Below are positions 3,253 through 7,432 of a stretch of DNA of 13,062 nt, one piece after another. Every line of letters begins with the position of its first letter. The first letter of the stretch is position 1. The notes beneath the pieces were generated by a model, which had not been told where the DNA came from, searched no databases, and worked only from the letters and a program-made list of their open reading frames with translations. Position numbers and translations under genes: made by a program. This stretch comes from a virus (taxonomy: Duplodnaviria > Heunggongvirae > Uroviricota > Caudoviricetes): positions 1 through 13,062 of IMG/VR virus record IMGVR_UViG_2529292921_000005, one strand, 5' to 3'.

Positions 3253-4005
3253 ATGTCAACACCAAATCCCCTTGAGCCGGTAAAAGGTGCCGGTACCACC
3301 CTGTGGGTTTATAACGGTCAGGGTGACGCCTATGCAAACCCGTTGTCAGACGATGACTGGCAGCGACTGGCTAAGGTGAAGGATCTGACGCCGGGCGAGA
3401 TGACGGCAGAACCCTACGATGATAACTACCTGGATGATGAAGACGCGGACTGGACTGCGACCGGGCAGGGGCAGAAGTCTGCAGGAGATACCAGTTTTAC
3501 GCTGGCCTGGAAACCGGGAGAAGAAGGTCAGAAAGGGCTTATAGGCTGGTTTGAAAGCGGGGATGTGCGGGCCTATAAAATCCGTTTCCCGAACGGCACG
3601 GTGGATGTGTTCCGTGGCTGGGTCAGCAGTATCGGTAAGGCCGTAACGGCGAAGGAAGTGATCACCCGCACGGTGAAAGTGACCAACGTGGGTAAACCTT
3701 CTGTGGCGGAAGAACGCAGCGAAATTACGCCGGTCACTGCGATTAAGGTGACGCCGACATCTGGTACGGTGGCAAAAGGGAAAACAACAACCCTGACGGT
3801 TTCTTTTGAGCCGGAAAGTGCAACCGACAAAACGTTCAGAGCGGTTTCCGCCGATCCGTCAACGGGAACCATTGCTGTGAAAGATATGGCGATCACTGTG
3901 ACGGGGGTTAAGGCTGGAAAAGTGAGTATCCCCGTGATTTCCGGTAATGGTCAGTTTGCCACGGTAGCTGAAGTCACCGTTACTGAAGCGGGCGCTGCAG
4001 GGTAA
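3253..4005 (+). CDS. V: major tail tube protein V with C-terminal Ig-like domain
   Basis: 250 aa; [31 protein letters not shown] and [38 protein letters not shown] blocks match lambda gpV; C-terminal region resembles its Ig-like domain. Confidence 0.95.
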
Positions 4006-4018
4006 ACGGAGGTAATAC

Positions 4019-4450
4019 ATGTTTCTGAAAACCGAACAATTTGAATATAACGGTGTGTCCGTCACGCTTTCCGAGCTGTCTGCGCTGCAGCGTATCGAGC
4101 ATCTTGCCCTGCTGAAACGACGGGCAGAACAGGCTGAAGCCAGCGGTAACCTGCAGGTGAGCGTGGAAGACCTTGTCAGAACCGGCGCGTTTCTGGTGGC
4201 GATGTCCCTGTGGCATAACCATCCACAGAAAACGGAGTCACCATCAATGAATGAGGCTGTGATGCAGATCGAACAGGAGGTGCTCACCACCTGGCCTGCT
4301 GATGCCATTGCCCGGGCGGAAGACGTGGTGTTGCGTCTGTCCGGGATGAGCGGGGCTGTTCATGTGGATACGGATATCACCGAAGTGGCGAAAAATAACG
4401 CGCTTACTGATGATGATTTTTCTGCGGGAAAGTCTTCGACGGCGAGCTGA
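4019..4450 (+). CDS. G: tail assembly chaperone G
   Basis: 143 aa; GGAGG RBS; MFLKTE.FE.NGV.VTLSELSALQRIEHLAL matches lambda gpG. Confidence 0.9.
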   Translation: MFLKTEQFEYNGVSVTLSELSALQRIEHLALLKRRAEQAEASGNLQVSVEDLVRTGAFLVAMSLWHNHPQKTESPSMNEAVMQIEQEVLTTWPADAIARAEDVVLRLSGMSGAVHVDTDITEVAKNNALTDDDFSAGKSSTAS

Positions 4451-4890
4451 ATTTTGCCCTCAGACTGGCGCGAGAGATGGGGAGGCCTGACTGGCGCGCC
4501 ATGCTTGCCGGGATGACATCCACCGAATATGCCGACTGGCGACATTTTTACCGCACGCATTATTTTCAGGATACCCAACTGGATATGCATTTTTCCGGGC
4601 TGATGTACGCTGTACTCAGCCTGTTTTTTTGCGATCCGGATATGCATCCCTCTGATTTCAGTCTGCTTGTCCCCCGGCATGAGGAAGAGCAGGTGGAGAG
4701 GCTGGATGAGGACAAAATGCTGATGCAGAAAGCGGCAGGACTTGCCGGAGGCGTCCGGTTCGGTGGGGACGGAGGGGGCGATATTTTATCGTCTGCGGAT
4801 GTGGCGGATGTCATGGTGGATGATGCCGCATTAATGATGGCTTCAGCGGGGATTCCAGGAGGTGTGAGATATGTCCCAGCCGGTTGGTGA
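4019..4890 (+). CDS. T: tail assembly chaperone G-T fusion, produced by -1 frameshift at 4426-4432 (join 4019..4432, 4432..4890)
   Basis: The -1 frame after the slippery site has no stop until 4888-4890 and contains the T-like ORF; its end overlaps the H start, as in lambda. Confidence 0.8.
4426..4432 (+). other. programmed -1 ribosomal frameshift slippery heptamer G GGA AAG (G to G-T)
   Basis: GGGAAAG in the X XXY YYZ register relative to the G frame (codons GCG GGA AAG), 6 codons before the G stop; the -1 frame is open from here through the T ORF to 4890. Confidence 0.8.
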
Positions 4891-7432
4891 TCTTATTATT
4901 GACCTGAGTCTGGATGCGGTCCGTTTCGATGAGCAGATGAGCCGGGTAAGGCGTCATTTTTCAGGACTGGATACTGACGCCAGAAAAACCGCCAGTGCTG
5001 TTGAACAGGGCCTGAGCCGCCAGGCGCTGGCTGCACAAAAAGCCGGGATTTCCGTCGGGCAGTATAAAGCGGCCATGCGAACCCTGCCCGCACAGTTTAC
5101 GGATATCGCCACGCAGCTTGCCGGTGGTCAGAATCCCTGGCTGATCCTGCTGCAACAGGGCGGTCAGGTGAAGGACTCCTTCGGCGGGATGATCCCCATG
5201 CTCAGGGGGCTTGCCGGTGCGATCACCCTGCCGATGGTCGGGGTCACCTCGCTGGCGGTGGCGACAGGTGCGCTGGCGTACGCCTGGTACCAGGGGGATT
5301 CCACGCTTTCAGCGTTTAATAAAACCCTGGTTCTTTCCGGTAATCAGTCCGGACTGACTGCCGATCGTATGCTGACTCTCTCAAGAGCCGGGCAGGCAGC
5401 AGGGCTGACGTTTAACCAGGCGAGAGAGTCACTGGCAGCCCTGGTGAATGCCGGTGTGCGTGGTGGTGAACAGTTTGATGCCATCAACCAGAGTGTCGCG
5501 CGTTTTGCGTCTGCATCCGGTGTGGAGGTGGATAAAGTCGCTGAAGCCTTCGGGAAGCTGACCACTGACCCGACGTCGGGACTGATGGCGATGGCGCGCC
5601 AGTTCCGTAACGTGACGGCAGAGCAGATTGCGTATGTTGCGCAGCTGCAGCGTTCCGGTGATGAGGCCGGGGCCTTACAGGCGGCGAACGATATCGCCAC
5701 GAAAGGCTTTGATGAGCAGACCCGCCGCCTGAAAGAGAACATGGGCACGCTGGAGACCTGGGCAGACAGGACTGCACGGGCATTCAAATCCATGTGGGAT
5801 GCGGTGCTGGATATTGGTCGTCCTGATACCGCGCAGGAGATGCTGATTAAGGCAGAGGCTGCGTTTAAGAAAGCAGACGACATCTGGAATCTGCGCAAGG
5901 ATGATTATTTTGTTAACGATGAAGCGCGGGCGCGTTACTGGGATGATCGTGAAAAGGCCCGTCTTGCGCTTGAAGCCGCCCGAAAGAAGGCTGAGCAGCA
6001 GACTCAACAGGACAAAAATGCGCAGCAGCAGAGCGATACCGAAGCGTCACGGCTGAAATATACCGAAGAGGCGCAGAAGGCTTACGAACGGCTGCAGACG
6101 CCGCTGGAGAAATATACCGCCCGTCAGGAAGAACTGAACAAGGCACTGAAAGACGGGAAAATCCTGCAGGCGGATTACAACACGCTGATGGCGGCGGCGA
6201 AAAAGGATTATGAAGCGACGCTGAAAAAGCCGAAACAGTCCGGCGTGAAGGTGTCTGCGGGCGATCGTCAGGAAGACAGTGCTCATGCTGCCCTGCTGAC
6301 GCTTCAGGCTGAACTCCGGACGCTGGAGAAGCATGCCGGAGCAAATGAGAAAATCAGCCAGCAGCGCCGGGATTTGTGGAAGGCGGAGAGTCAGTTCGCG
6401 GTACTGGAGGAGGCGGCACAACGTCGCCAGCTGTCCGCACAGGAGAAATCCCTGCTGGCGCATAAAGATGAGACGCTGGAGTACAAACGCCAGCTGGCTG
6501 CACTTGGCGATAAGGTCACGTATCAGGAGCGTCTGAATGCGCTGGCGCAGCAGGCGGATAAATTCGCACAGCAGCAACGGGCAAAACGGGCCGCCATTGA
6601 TGCGAAAAGCCGGGGGCTGACTGACCGGCAGGCAGAACGGGAAGCCACAGAACAGCGCCTGAAGGAACAGTATGGCGATAATCCGCTGGCGCTGAATAAC
6701 GTCATGTCAGAGCAGAAAAAGACCTGGGCGGCTGAAGACCAGCTTCGCGGGAACTGGATGGCAGGCCTGAAGTCCGGCTGGAGTGAGTGGGAAGAGAGCG
6801 CCACGGACAGTATGTCGCAGGTAAAAAGTGCAGCCACGCAGACCTTTGATGGTATTGCACAGAATATGGCGGCGATGCTGACCGGCAGTGAGCAGAACTG
6901 GCGCAGCTTCACCCGTTCCGTGCTGTCCATGATGACAGAAATTCTGCTTAAGCAGGCAATGGTGGGGATTGTCGGGAGTATCGGCAGCGCCATTGGCGGG
7001 GCTGTTGGTGGCGGCGCATCCGCGTCAGGCGGTACAGCCATTCAGGCCGCTGCGGCGAAATTCCATTTTGCAACCGGAGGGTTTACGGGAACCGGCGGCA
7101 AATATGAGCCAGCGGGGATTGTTCACCGTGGTGAGTTTGTCTTCACGAAGGAGGCAACCAGCCGGATTGGCGTGGGGAATCTTTACCGGCTGATGCGCGG
7201 CTATGCCACCGGCGGTTATGTCGGTACACCGGGCAGCATGGCAGACAGCCGGTCGCAGGCGTCCGGGACGTTTGAGCAGAATAACCATGTGGTGATTAAC
7301 AACGACGGCACGAACGGGCAGATAGGGCCACAGGCGCTGAAGGCTGTTTATGACGTAGCCCGTAAGGCGGCAATGGATGTTGTGACCGGGCAGATGCGCG
7401 ATGGTGGTCTGTTCTCCGGAGGTGGACGATGA
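4871..7432 (+). CDS. H: tail tape measure protein H
   Basis: 853 aa, identical in length to lambda gpH and near-identical over long stretches as recalled; central coiled-coil region and Gly-rich C-terminal segment; GGAGG RBS. Confidence 0.95.
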   Translation: MSQPVGDLIIDLSLDAVRFDEQMSRVRRHFSGLDTDARKTASAVEQGLSRQALAAQKAGISVGQYKAAMRTLPAQFTDIATQLAGGQNPWLILLQQGGQVKDSFGGMIPMLRGLAGAITLPMVGVTSLAVATGALAYAWYQGDSTLSAFNKTLVLSGNQSGLTADRMLTLSRAGQAAGLTFNQARESLAALVNAGVRGGEQFDAINQSVARFASASGVEVDKVAEAFGKLTTDPTSGLMAMARQFRNVTAEQIAYVAQLQRSGDEAGALQAANDIATKGFDEQTRRLKENMGTLETWADRTARAFKSMWDAVLDIGRPDTAQEMLIKAEAAFKKADDIWNLRKDDYFVNDEARARYWDDREKARLALEAARKKAEQQTQQDKNAQQQSDTEASRLKYTEEAQKAYERLQTPLEKYTARQEELNKALKDGKILQADYNTLMAAAKKDYEATLKKPKQSGVKVSAGDRQEDSAHAALLTLQAELRTLEKHAGANEKISQQRRDLWKAESQFAVLEEAAQRRQLSAQEKSLLAHKDETLEYKRQLAALGDKVTYQERLNALAQQADKFAQQQRAKRAAIDAKSRGLTDRQAEREATEQRLKEQYGDNPLALNNVMSEQKKTWAAEDQLRGNWMAGLKSGWSEWEESATDSMSQVKSAATQTFDGIAQNMAAMLTGSEQNWRSFTRSVLSMMTEILLKQAMVGIVGSIGSAIGGAVGGGASASGGTAIQAAAAKFHFATGGFTGTGGKYEPAGIVHRGEFVFTKEATSRIGVGNLYRLMRGYATGGYVGTPGSMADSRSQASGTFEQNNHVVINNDGTNGQIGPQALKAVYDVARKAAMDVVTGQMRDGGLFSGGGR

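What the first reader, a model, noticed from the sequence alone, without database searches (positions are those of the whole stretch)
4426..4890. Conserved G to G-T programmed -1 frameshift signal is intact
The heptamer G GGA AAG lies in the correct register 6 codons before the G stop, and the -1 frame is open through T to a stop overlapping the H start. This is the well-known tail assembly chaperone arrangement in lambdoid and many other long-tailed phages. Its presence argues that the prophage was a functional tail producer until recently, and it serves as a contrast for the apparently non-programmed frame breaks in L and I.
Basis: partly seen in the sequence, partly recalled or inferred. 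Interest (0 to 1): 0.4.

Follow-up and report, generated by a model that had tools for sequence, protein, structure and literature searches.

The report
Lambda-type G/GT tail chaperone frameshift site
This is the textbook slippery site of a lambda-like prophage, at which a few percent of ribosomes are expected to slip back one base to fuse tail chaperone G to domain T; it is intact here and entirely ordinary.

Summary
GGGAAAG lies at 4426-4432 in register G GGA AAG in gene G (4019-4450). AAG is the sixth codon before the TGA. The -1 frame is open from 4417 to the TGA at 4888-4890.

One detail is wrong: that stop does not overlap the H start codon (ATG 4871). The two ORFs overlap by 20 nt.

The heptamer alone occurs at the chance rate (2 found, 2.0 expected). 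The context is what identifies it:
- It is the only in-register XXXYYYZ in the window that opens a long -1 ORF.
- G and T match the lambda families (TIGR01674, TIGR01715; PF06894, PF06223).
- They sit between the tail tube gene V and the tape measure gene H.
- The fused 290-aa product is 69% identical to lambda gpGT.
- The site is fixed at the same position in 82 of 90 related loci, and a 46%-identical relative has A AAA AAG there.
- T has no Shine-Dalgarno sequence and no conserved start.
- Changes in the G/T overlap fit constraint on the -1 frame.

I found no convincing downstream stimulatory structure.

Verdict: an already-known programmed -1 frameshift signal, of low interest. The window is a draft contig, so the frame breaks in L and I may be sequencing errors. 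The "recently functional" inference is therefore weak.

The parts
3253..4005 (+). Gene V homologue (major tail tube protein with a C-terminal Ig-like domain). It is the upstream neighbour that defines the V-G-T-H context.
   Evidence: PF16461 E=5.8e-69 and PF02368 E=2.3e-16. RefSeq 'phage tail protein' in the identical E2348/69 locus.
4008..4012 (+). Shine-Dalgarno sequence GGAGG, 6 nt before the G start codon.
   Evidence: Read from the sequence.
4019..4450 (+). Gene G, the tail assembly chaperone (143 aa). This is the 0-frame product gpG.
   Evidence: PF06894 E=3.2e-50. TIGR01674 equivalog, 161.8 bits against a cut-off of 74.45. 100% identical to gpG of E2348/69.
4426..4432 (+). Slippery heptamer G GGA AAG (Gly-Lys), the site of the -1 tandem tRNA slip.
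   Evidence: In register. Identical, with its flanks TTTCTGC...T, to the lambda site. Present at the same position in 82 of 90 related loci.
4433..4450 (+). The last five codons and stop of G, overlapped by the first T-frame codons (VFDGEL).
   Evidence: There are 4 variable columns among relatives. Three fall on the third position of the -1 frame, which is the second position of the G frame. All five observed substitutions alter the G tail (Ser to Pro/Cys/Phe, Thr to Lys, Ala to Val). The -1 peptide stays GKVFDGEL apart from Val to Ala and Asp to Glu.
4432..4890 (+). T domain coding sequence in the -1 frame (152 aa plus TGA). It is expressed only as the C-terminal part of gpGT. The fusion is 4019..4432 joined to 4432..4890, giving 290 aa.
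   Evidence: PF06223 E=3.5e-13. TIGR01715, 203.9 bits, starting at fusion residue 143, which is 11 residues before Met154 (ATG 4477). phrog_32165 matches 1-290 of 290. 69% identity to lambda gpGT over the full length.
4477..4479 (+). The internal ATG that RefSeq uses as the 'T' start. It is probably not a real initiation site.
   Evidence: There is no SD-like sequence upstream of it or of ATG 4501. The codon is Phe (TTY) in most relatives. Two gene callers disagree, choosing 4477 and 4501.
4857..4862 (+). Shine-Dalgarno sequence AGGAGG for H, inside the 3' end of the T frame.
   Evidence: Read from the sequence.
4871..7432 (+). Gene H, the tape measure protein (853 aa). It is the downstream neighbour and the binding partner of gpG/gpGT.
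   Evidence: PF06791 E=3.8e-69 and PF09718 E=2.1e-21.

Best explanation
This is the programmed -1 ribosomal frameshift signal of a lambda-like prophage tail module.

Most ribosomes translating G read G GGA AAG in frame and terminate at TGA 4448, making the chaperone gpG (143 aa). A small fraction slips. With tRNA-Gly on GGA in the P site and tRNA-Lys (anticodon mnm5s2UUU) on AAG in the A site, both tRNAs re-pair one base back, on GGG and AAA. Translation then continues with GTC (4432-4434) in the -1 frame to TGA 4888, giving gpGT (290 aa).

By analogy with lambda:
- gpG and the G part of gpGT coat the tape measure protein H.
- The T part recruits the tube protein V.
- The fixed low slip rate (about 4% in lambda, roughly 30:1 G:GT) sets the stoichiometry needed for tail assembly.
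- Neither protein ends up in the virion.

Shown here: the anatomy, the register, the homology, the gene order, conservation of the site, and the lack of an independent T start.

Inferred, not shown: that slipping occurs at this locus, its rate, and the roles of the proteins.

The heptamer appears to act without a dedicated downstream structure.
For: Register and open -1 frame.

Family assignments:
- G is PF06894 and TIGR01674; T is PF06223 and TIGR01715.
- The full-length fused model phrog_32165 matches at E=2.5e-182.
- Identity to lambda gpGT is 69%, E=2e-141.

Context:
- Gene order is V-G-T-H.
- There is no promoter or terminator within 3900-5100.

Conservation of the site:
- The 15 nt around the site (TTTCTGCGGGAAAGT) are identical to lambda, although the G 3' part just upstream is highly diverged and carries indels.
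- GGGAAAG is at the same position in 82 of 90 loci.
- A relative with 46% G identity has the alternative slippery heptamer A AAA AAG at the same position.
- 47 Enterobacterales loci all keep an A AAR core at the G/T junction.

Selection and expression:
- The substitution pattern in the overlap fits selection on the -1 frame, though it rests on only four variable columns.
- No SD precedes ATG 4477 or 4501, whereas G and H have strong SDs.

Literature for lambda:
- G_GGA_AAG site, about 96% 0-frame reading, role of tRNA-Lys (PMC3296357, PMC7618472).
- 30:1 ratio and chaperone model (PMC5009743).
- G_GGA_AAG described as highly shift-prone in E. coli (PMC5009743).
Against: - Nothing in the sequence contradicts this reading.
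- There is no experimental evidence for this locus.
- The prophage may be silent or defective, so the signal may never be used in this strain.
- A bare heptamer is a chance-level motif.
- RefSeq annotates T as an independent CDS.
Confidence: 0.93

Rival explanations
1. T is an independent gene translated from its own start (ATG 4477, as RefSeq annotates it, or ATG 4501, as in the draft's gene calls). On this view the heptamer in G is incidental.
For: RefSeq has the CDS at 4477..4890, 'phage tail assembly protein T'. The draft's gene call starts at window 4501. The heptamer alone occurs at the chance rate.
Against: - There is no SD-like sequence before either ATG.
- The two callers disagree on the start.
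- The TIGR01715 profile starts 11 residues upstream of Met154 (ATG 4477).
- The -1 frame peptide from the slip site onward (GKVFDGELNFALRLARE) is conserved in relatives.
- The Met codon is Phe in most relatives.
- As reviewed, the T-frame sequence is made in lambda as the C-terminal part of the frameshift product gpGT (PMC5009743, citing Levin et al. 1993).
Confidence: 0.03
2. The frameshift is ribosomal as above, but it is tuned by a clade-specific downstream RNA structure. The structure is a stem 4440-4447/4503-4510, starting 7 nt 3' of the heptamer, which encloses a hairpin 4466-4476/4491-4501.
For: - The structure appears in the MFE fold of 4426-4520.
- It is the RNAalifold consensus of 9 relatives.
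- On those sequences 92% of cells are paired and the covariation score exceeds all 500 shuffles.
- Its spacing from the heptamer is typical of stimulators.
- Paired columns vary less in the lambda clade (5 of 36 against 23 of 57, p=0.01).
Against: - The fold is not unusually stable (z=-1.61, matched or beaten by 13 of 200 shuffles; 4433-4480 alone gives z=+0.10).
- The structure was derived from the same 9 sequences on which it was first scored.
- On 47 held-out relatives only 71.7% of cells pair, against 67.6% when shuffled. Pairs with changes on both sides number 8 against 8.2, and pair types 20 against 20.2. The +1 slid control has nearly the same covariation score.
- At third codon positions the depletion of variation disappears (p=0.26), so protein constraint on LAREMGRPDWRAML explains it.
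- No compensatory change is seen within the lambda clade.
Confidence: 0.07
3. The G/T frame change is not programmed. It would be a sequencing error, or a decay mutation that split a single G-T gene, or the fusion would be made by transcriptional slippage.
For: The same contig has three single-base deletions elsewhere. One related contig (L079) has a homopolymer deletion right next to the site.
Against: - The same two-frame arrangement is found in lambda itself, in the complete E2348/69 genome at 100% identity, and in about 130 further loci.
- The longest run at the site is A3/G3, and the nearest homopolymer is T5. I take these to be too short for transcriptional slippage; this rests on general knowledge, not on a test made here.
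Confidence: 0.01

Closest known systems
Bacteriophage lambda G / G-T programmed -1 frameshift (Levin, Hendrix and Casjens 1993; Xu, Hendrix and Duda 2004, 2013, 2014, as cited in PMC5009743)
   Same: - The same heptamer, G GGA AAG, in the same register.
- The same distance to the G stop, with AAG six codons before TGA.
- The same 15-nt core.
- The same V-G-T-H gene order.
- G and T belong to the same equivalog families.
- The fused product is 69% identical.
   Different: - G has 3 more residues and a diverged C-terminal third.
- T has a 4-residue insertion and 4 extra C-terminal residues.
- The T/H overlap is 20 nt rather than 8.
- None of these differences touches the signal.
Prophage of E. 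coli O127:H6 E2348/69 (NC_011601.1, 752-765 kb) and Stx2a-converting phages
   Same: 100% identical to E2348/69 over 3900-5100. 94.3% identical to many Stx2a phages. 3498 of 5426 complete E. coli genomes hold a match to this region.
   Different: Downstream of about 7860 the window has three 1-nt deletions, and from about 8500 it is mosaic relative to E2348/69.
G/T junctions of phi80-, N15-, Gifsy-1- and cdtI-like phages and other Enterobacterales prophages
   Same: The same G and T families. The slip site is at the G/T junction, encodes Gly-Lys and has an A AAR core.
   Different: - These mostly use G GAA AAG, which is not a strict XXXYYYZ heptamer. After the slip, P-site tRNA-Glu would pair with GGA through a G.U pair.
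- G GCA AAA and G GTA AAG also occur.
- The G stop is often only 1-2 codons after AAG.
- The T domain is shorter.
E. coli dnaX -1 frameshift (A AAA AAG)
   Same: A tandem slip on a Lys AAG codon read by the single tRNA-Lys (PMC5009743).
   Different: dnaX is known to have an upstream SD-like stimulator and a downstream hairpin, to shift at about 50%, and to give a shorter product (recalled from the literature, not checked here). Here I saw no SD-like sequence upstream (by inspection), found no supported hairpin, and expect low efficiency and a longer product.

Membership tests
Lambda-type G/GT tail assembly chaperone frameshift | Two overlapping ORFs lie between the major tail tube gene and the tape measure gene. 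| tested here: met
   V is 3253-4005, G 4019-4450, the T frame 4417-4890 and H 4871-7432.
Lambda-type G/GT tail assembly chaperone frameshift | The upstream ORF belongs to the gpG family. | tested here: met
   PF06894 at 169.6 bits (cut-off 27). TIGR01674 at 161.8 bits (cut-off 74.45).
Lambda-type G/GT tail assembly chaperone frameshift | The downstream ORF is in the -1 frame and belongs to the gpT family. | tested here: met
   PF06223 at 50.2 bits (cut-off 25.9). TIGR01715 at 203.9 bits (cut-off 77.35). The frame is -1 relative to G.
Lambda-type G/GT tail assembly chaperone frameshift | A slippery heptamer X XXY YYZ sits in the 0-frame register near the 3' end of G, inside the overlap with the open -1 frame. 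| tested here: met
   G GGA AAG is at 4426-4432. The -1 frame opens at 4417.
Lambda-type G/GT tail assembly chaperone frameshift | The slip site is conserved at the homologous position in relatives. | tested here: met
   82 of 90 loci have GGGAAAG. A AAA AAG replaces it in a 46%-identical relative. An A AAR core is present in all 47 distant loci.
Lambda-type G/GT tail assembly chaperone frameshift | T has no independent translation start. | tested here: met
   There is no SD before ATG 4477 or 4501. The Met is not conserved. The family profile begins upstream of it. This rests on inspection and conservation, not on an expression test.
Lambda-type G/GT tail assembly chaperone frameshift | The -1 frame is under purifying selection from the slip site onward. 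| tested here: met
   In the overlap there are 4 variable columns, 3 of them at the third position of the -1 frame. All changes are non-synonymous in G. The sample is small. Over 4426-4656 the variable columns by -1 codon position 3/2/1 are 32/20/17.
Lambda-type G/GT tail assembly chaperone frameshift | gpGT is actually produced at a few percent of gpG, and both are required for tail assembly. | not testable with these tools
   Known for lambda only (PMC3296357, PMC5009743).
Stimulated -1 PRF signals (dnaX- or IS-type, with a 3' hairpin or pseudoknot or a 5' SD) | A conserved downstream structure 5-9 nt after the heptamer. | tested here: not met
   z=+0.10 and z=-1.61. The held-out covariation test fails. 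There is no constraint at synonymous sites. There is no Rfam match.

The most novel reading that the evidence does not exclude
In the lambda/E. coli clade only, a long-range stem (4440-4447 with 4503-4510) enclosing a hairpin (4466-4476 with 4491-4501) starts 7 nt after the heptamer. It would fine-tune the gpG:gpGT ratio and so be a previously unnoticed stimulator of a frameshift that I recall being treated as driven by the heptamer alone. I could not verify that view in the papers I was able to read.
Probability: 0.07. Interest if true: 0.3.

Novelty: already known. Interest (0 to 1): 0.06.

Why it matters
It matters little beyond correct annotation. The site is the classic example of a programmed frameshift that fixes the ratio of two assembly chaperones.

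Recognising it here has three practical uses:
- It shows that G and T of this prophage are intact.
- It shows that the RefSeq and draft annotations of T as a stand-alone gene (starts at 4477 or 4501) miss the true 290-aa gpGT product.
- It gives an internal example of a frame change that is biological, against which the single-base breaks in L and I can be judged. Those breaks may be errors of a draft assembly.

Tried and rejected
- **Bare motif statistics.** The heptamer occurs at the chance rate, so it cannot be used as evidence on its own.
- **Rfam.** No family matched anywhere in the window.
None was found (z=+0.10).
- **A longer consensus structure.** It looked promising on 9 sequences. 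It failed on 47 held-out relatives and showed no synonymous-site signal. I reject it as unsupported, though it is not strictly excluded for the lambda clade.
- **Upstream SD-like stimulator.** None is visible in 4400-4425 on inspection.
- **Solved structures of G or GT.** No sequence match in the PDB.
- **Naming the strain behind AIEW01000004.1.** The literature search for the accession found nothing. From memory the prefix may belong to the DEC diarrheagenic E. coli draft genomes, but this is unverified.
- **Reading Xu et al. 2013 (PMC3762263)** for a statement on stimulators. The paper is not held. Levin et al. 1993 could not be read either, so I make no cited claim about what they found on 3' sequences.
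- **Looking for the window's L-to-I region in complete E. coli genomes.** The best full-length match is only 96.5% identical.

Full report
**What is in the sequence**

- Gene G runs from ATG 4019 to TGA 4448-4450 (143 aa). It is preceded by GGAGG at 4008-4012.
- GGGAAAG occupies 4426-4432. In the G frame the codons are GCG GGA AAG TCT TCG ACG GCG AGC TGA. The heptamer is therefore in the X XXY YYZ register, and AAG is the sixth codon before the stop.
- The -1 frame has several stops just upstream, the last at 4414-4416. It is then open from 4417 to 4887 and ends at TGA 4888-4890.
- H starts at ATG 4871 behind AGGAGG at 4857-4862. T and H therefore overlap by 20 nt. In lambda the overlap is 8 nt.

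**Is it more than chance?**

The heptamer itself is not: there are 2 copies in the window and 2.0 are expected. The other copy, at 8548-8554 in K, is out of register. The configuration is what stands out.

- The + strand genes (4152 codons) hold six in-register XXXYYYZ motifs.
- Only this one leads into a -1 frame that stays open for 154 codons and passes the 0-frame stop. The others end after 4-19 codons.
- Only 1.6% of codon positions have a -1 frame open for 150 codons or more.

**What the two frames encode**

- G matches PF06894 (E=3e-50) and the equivalog TIGR01674.
- The -1 frame matches PF06223 (E=3.5e-13) and the equivalog TIGR01715 (203.9 bits).
- The neighbours are the lambda-type tube protein V and the tape measure protein H.
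- I built the fusion as 4019..4432 plus 4432..4887, with G4432 read twice. It is 290 aa long.
- The fusion is 69% identical to lambda gpGT over its whole length (E=2e-141).
- It matches PHROG 32165, a family of fused GT proteins, over 1-290 of 290 (E=2.5e-182).
- No promoter-like or terminator-like site interrupts 3900-5100.

**Origin of the window**

- The window is the complete contig AIEW01000004.1 of draft assembly GCA_000249075.2.
- Positions 3900-5100 are 100% identical to a prophage of E. coli O127:H6 E2348/69.
- The same region is 94.3% identical to many Stx2a-converting phages.
- 3498 of 5426 complete E. coli genomes hold a match to it.

**Conservation of the signal**

- Against lambda, the last third of G is highly diverged and carries indels. 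Even so, the 15 nt TTTCTGCGGGAAAGT are identical.
- In 90 related loci (80 viral contigs and 10 named phages), 82 have GGGAAAG at the same position.
- An Stx1a phage whose G is only 46% identical has A AAA AAG there. That is a different but equally slippery heptamer, which argues for selection on slipperiness rather than on the sequence itself.
- In 47 further Enterobacterales loci found through the T domain, every G/T junction keeps an A AAR core encoding Gly-Lys. Most read G GAA AAG; some read G GCA AAA, G GTA AAG or G GGA AAA.

**Which frame is under selection after the site?**

- In the 18-nt overlap, 4 columns vary among relatives. Three of them are third positions of the -1 frame and second positions of the G frame.
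- All five observed substitutions change the G tail (Ser to Pro/Cys/Phe, Thr to Lys, Ala to Val). The -1 peptide stays GKVFDGEL apart from Val to Ala and Asp to Glu.
- The sample is small, but it agrees with the protein alignment of the T frame, which is conserved from the slip site onward.

**Does T have its own start?**

RefSeq annotates T from ATG 4477, and the draft's gene call starts at 4501. Four observations argue against either being a real start.

- Neither ATG has an SD-like sequence, unlike G and H.
- The TIGR01715 profile begins 11 residues upstream of Met154.
- That Met is Phe in most relatives.
- As reviewed, the T-frame sequence is made in lambda as the C-terminal part of the frameshift product gpGT (PMC5009743, citing Levin et al. 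1993).

**Mechanism**

The mechanism is inferred by homology with lambda.

- tRNA-Gly on GGA and tRNA-Lys (mnm5s2UUU) on AAG slip back one base to GGG and AAA.
- Lambda reads the 0 frame about 96% of the time, and hypomodified tRNA-Lys raises the shift (PMC3296357, PMC7618472).
- The resulting ratio of about 30:1 gpG:gpGT is needed for tail assembly. G binds the tape measure protein H and T recruits the tube protein V. Neither is in the virion (PMC5009743).
- G_GGA_AAG is described as highly shift-prone in E. coli (PMC5009743).

**Downstream stimulator**

For 4426-4520, z=-1.61.
- RNAalifold on 9 relatives proposed a stem 4440-4447/4503-4510 around a hairpin 4466-4476/4491-4501. On those same sequences it showed apparent covariation.
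- On 47 held-out relatives the structure fails. Only 71.7% of cells pair, against 67.6% when shuffled. The counts of doubly changed pairs and of pair types equal the shuffle means. A control slid by one column scores the same.
- Within the lambda clade there are no compensatory changes.
- The lower variability of the paired columns vanishes at third codon positions (p=0.26).
- I conclude there is no supported stimulator. Rfam has no match.

**The add-on claim about prophage decay**

- Relative to E2348/69 the window lacks one T of a T6 run at about 7864, which breaks L.
- It lacks one A at about 8453, in the L/K spacer.
- It lacks one T at about 9194, which breaks I.
- It is mosaic from about 8500 onward.
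- The broken L product is on record in this contig only.
- Because this is a draft contig, and two of the three deletions shorten runs of three or more identical bases, sequencing error is as likely as decay. The intact 7-nt signal says little about how recently the tail module was functional.

**Verdict**

The feature is the already-known lambda G/GT frameshift, and it is of low interest.

Noticed in passing
window 7864, 8453, 9194 (L, the L/K spacer, and the K 3' end / I 5' part): There are three single-base deletions relative to the near-identical E2348/69 prophage: T6 to T5, AAA to AA, and TT to T. They break L and I. The window is a whole draft contig (AIEW01000004.1), and the 221-aa L fragment is on record only there. 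Sequencing error and real pseudogenisation cannot be told apart.
   Followed up: partly
window 8500-13062: Up to about 8500 the window differs from E2348/69 at only about 20 positions. It then becomes mosaic, with SNP-dense blocks in K, I and J. Homology ends at 12899, and the J ORF stops at 13005, 57 nt before the contig end. This looks like recombination between lambdoid prophages or a collapsed repeat assembly.
   Followed up: partly
window 4477-4890; L002 (NC_011601.1 E2348C_RS03800); L093: RefSeq/PGAP and the draft's gene calls annotate T as a separate CDS from internal ATGs (4477 and 4501 respectively). The 290-aa gpGT fusion is not annotated. Several phage records do the same, while phage 21 and HK630 annotate the joined GT product.
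   Followed up: yes
L111-L173 (Enterobacterales genomes), L087-L092 (phi80, mEp237, mEp213, mEp460, Gifsy-1): Most members of this G/T family use G GAA AAG, which is not a strict XXXYYYZ heptamer, at the junction. G GCA AAA, G GTA AAG and G GGA AAA also occur. The G stop is often only 1-2 codons after the Lys codon.
   Followed up: partly
L096-L110: Short or low-coverage contigs in assemblies of unrelated organisms carry lambda G-T DNA that is identical to lambda over the slip region. The organisms include Neobacillus, Oceanobacillus, Kitasatospora, Pseudomonas, Shewanella and Leeuwenhoekiella. This is most likely laboratory lambda DNA contamination.
   Followed up: no
L079:1895-1905 (IMGVR_UViG_2526164664_000012): The T5 run 5 nt upstream of the heptamer is T4 here. 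This puts the heptamer out of register and extends the G frame. It is another homopolymer indel, either an error or a mutation.
   Followed up: partly
L147 (Shigella flexneri CP182557.1): The heptamer is intact, but the T frame stops 11 codons after it and the G frame is open for only 13 codons upstream. This is a clearly decayed copy, and it shows that an intact heptamer can outlive the genes around it.
   Followed up: no
window 8548-8554: A second GGGAAAG lies in K. It is out of register with the K frame and has no long -1 ORF.
   Followed up: yes
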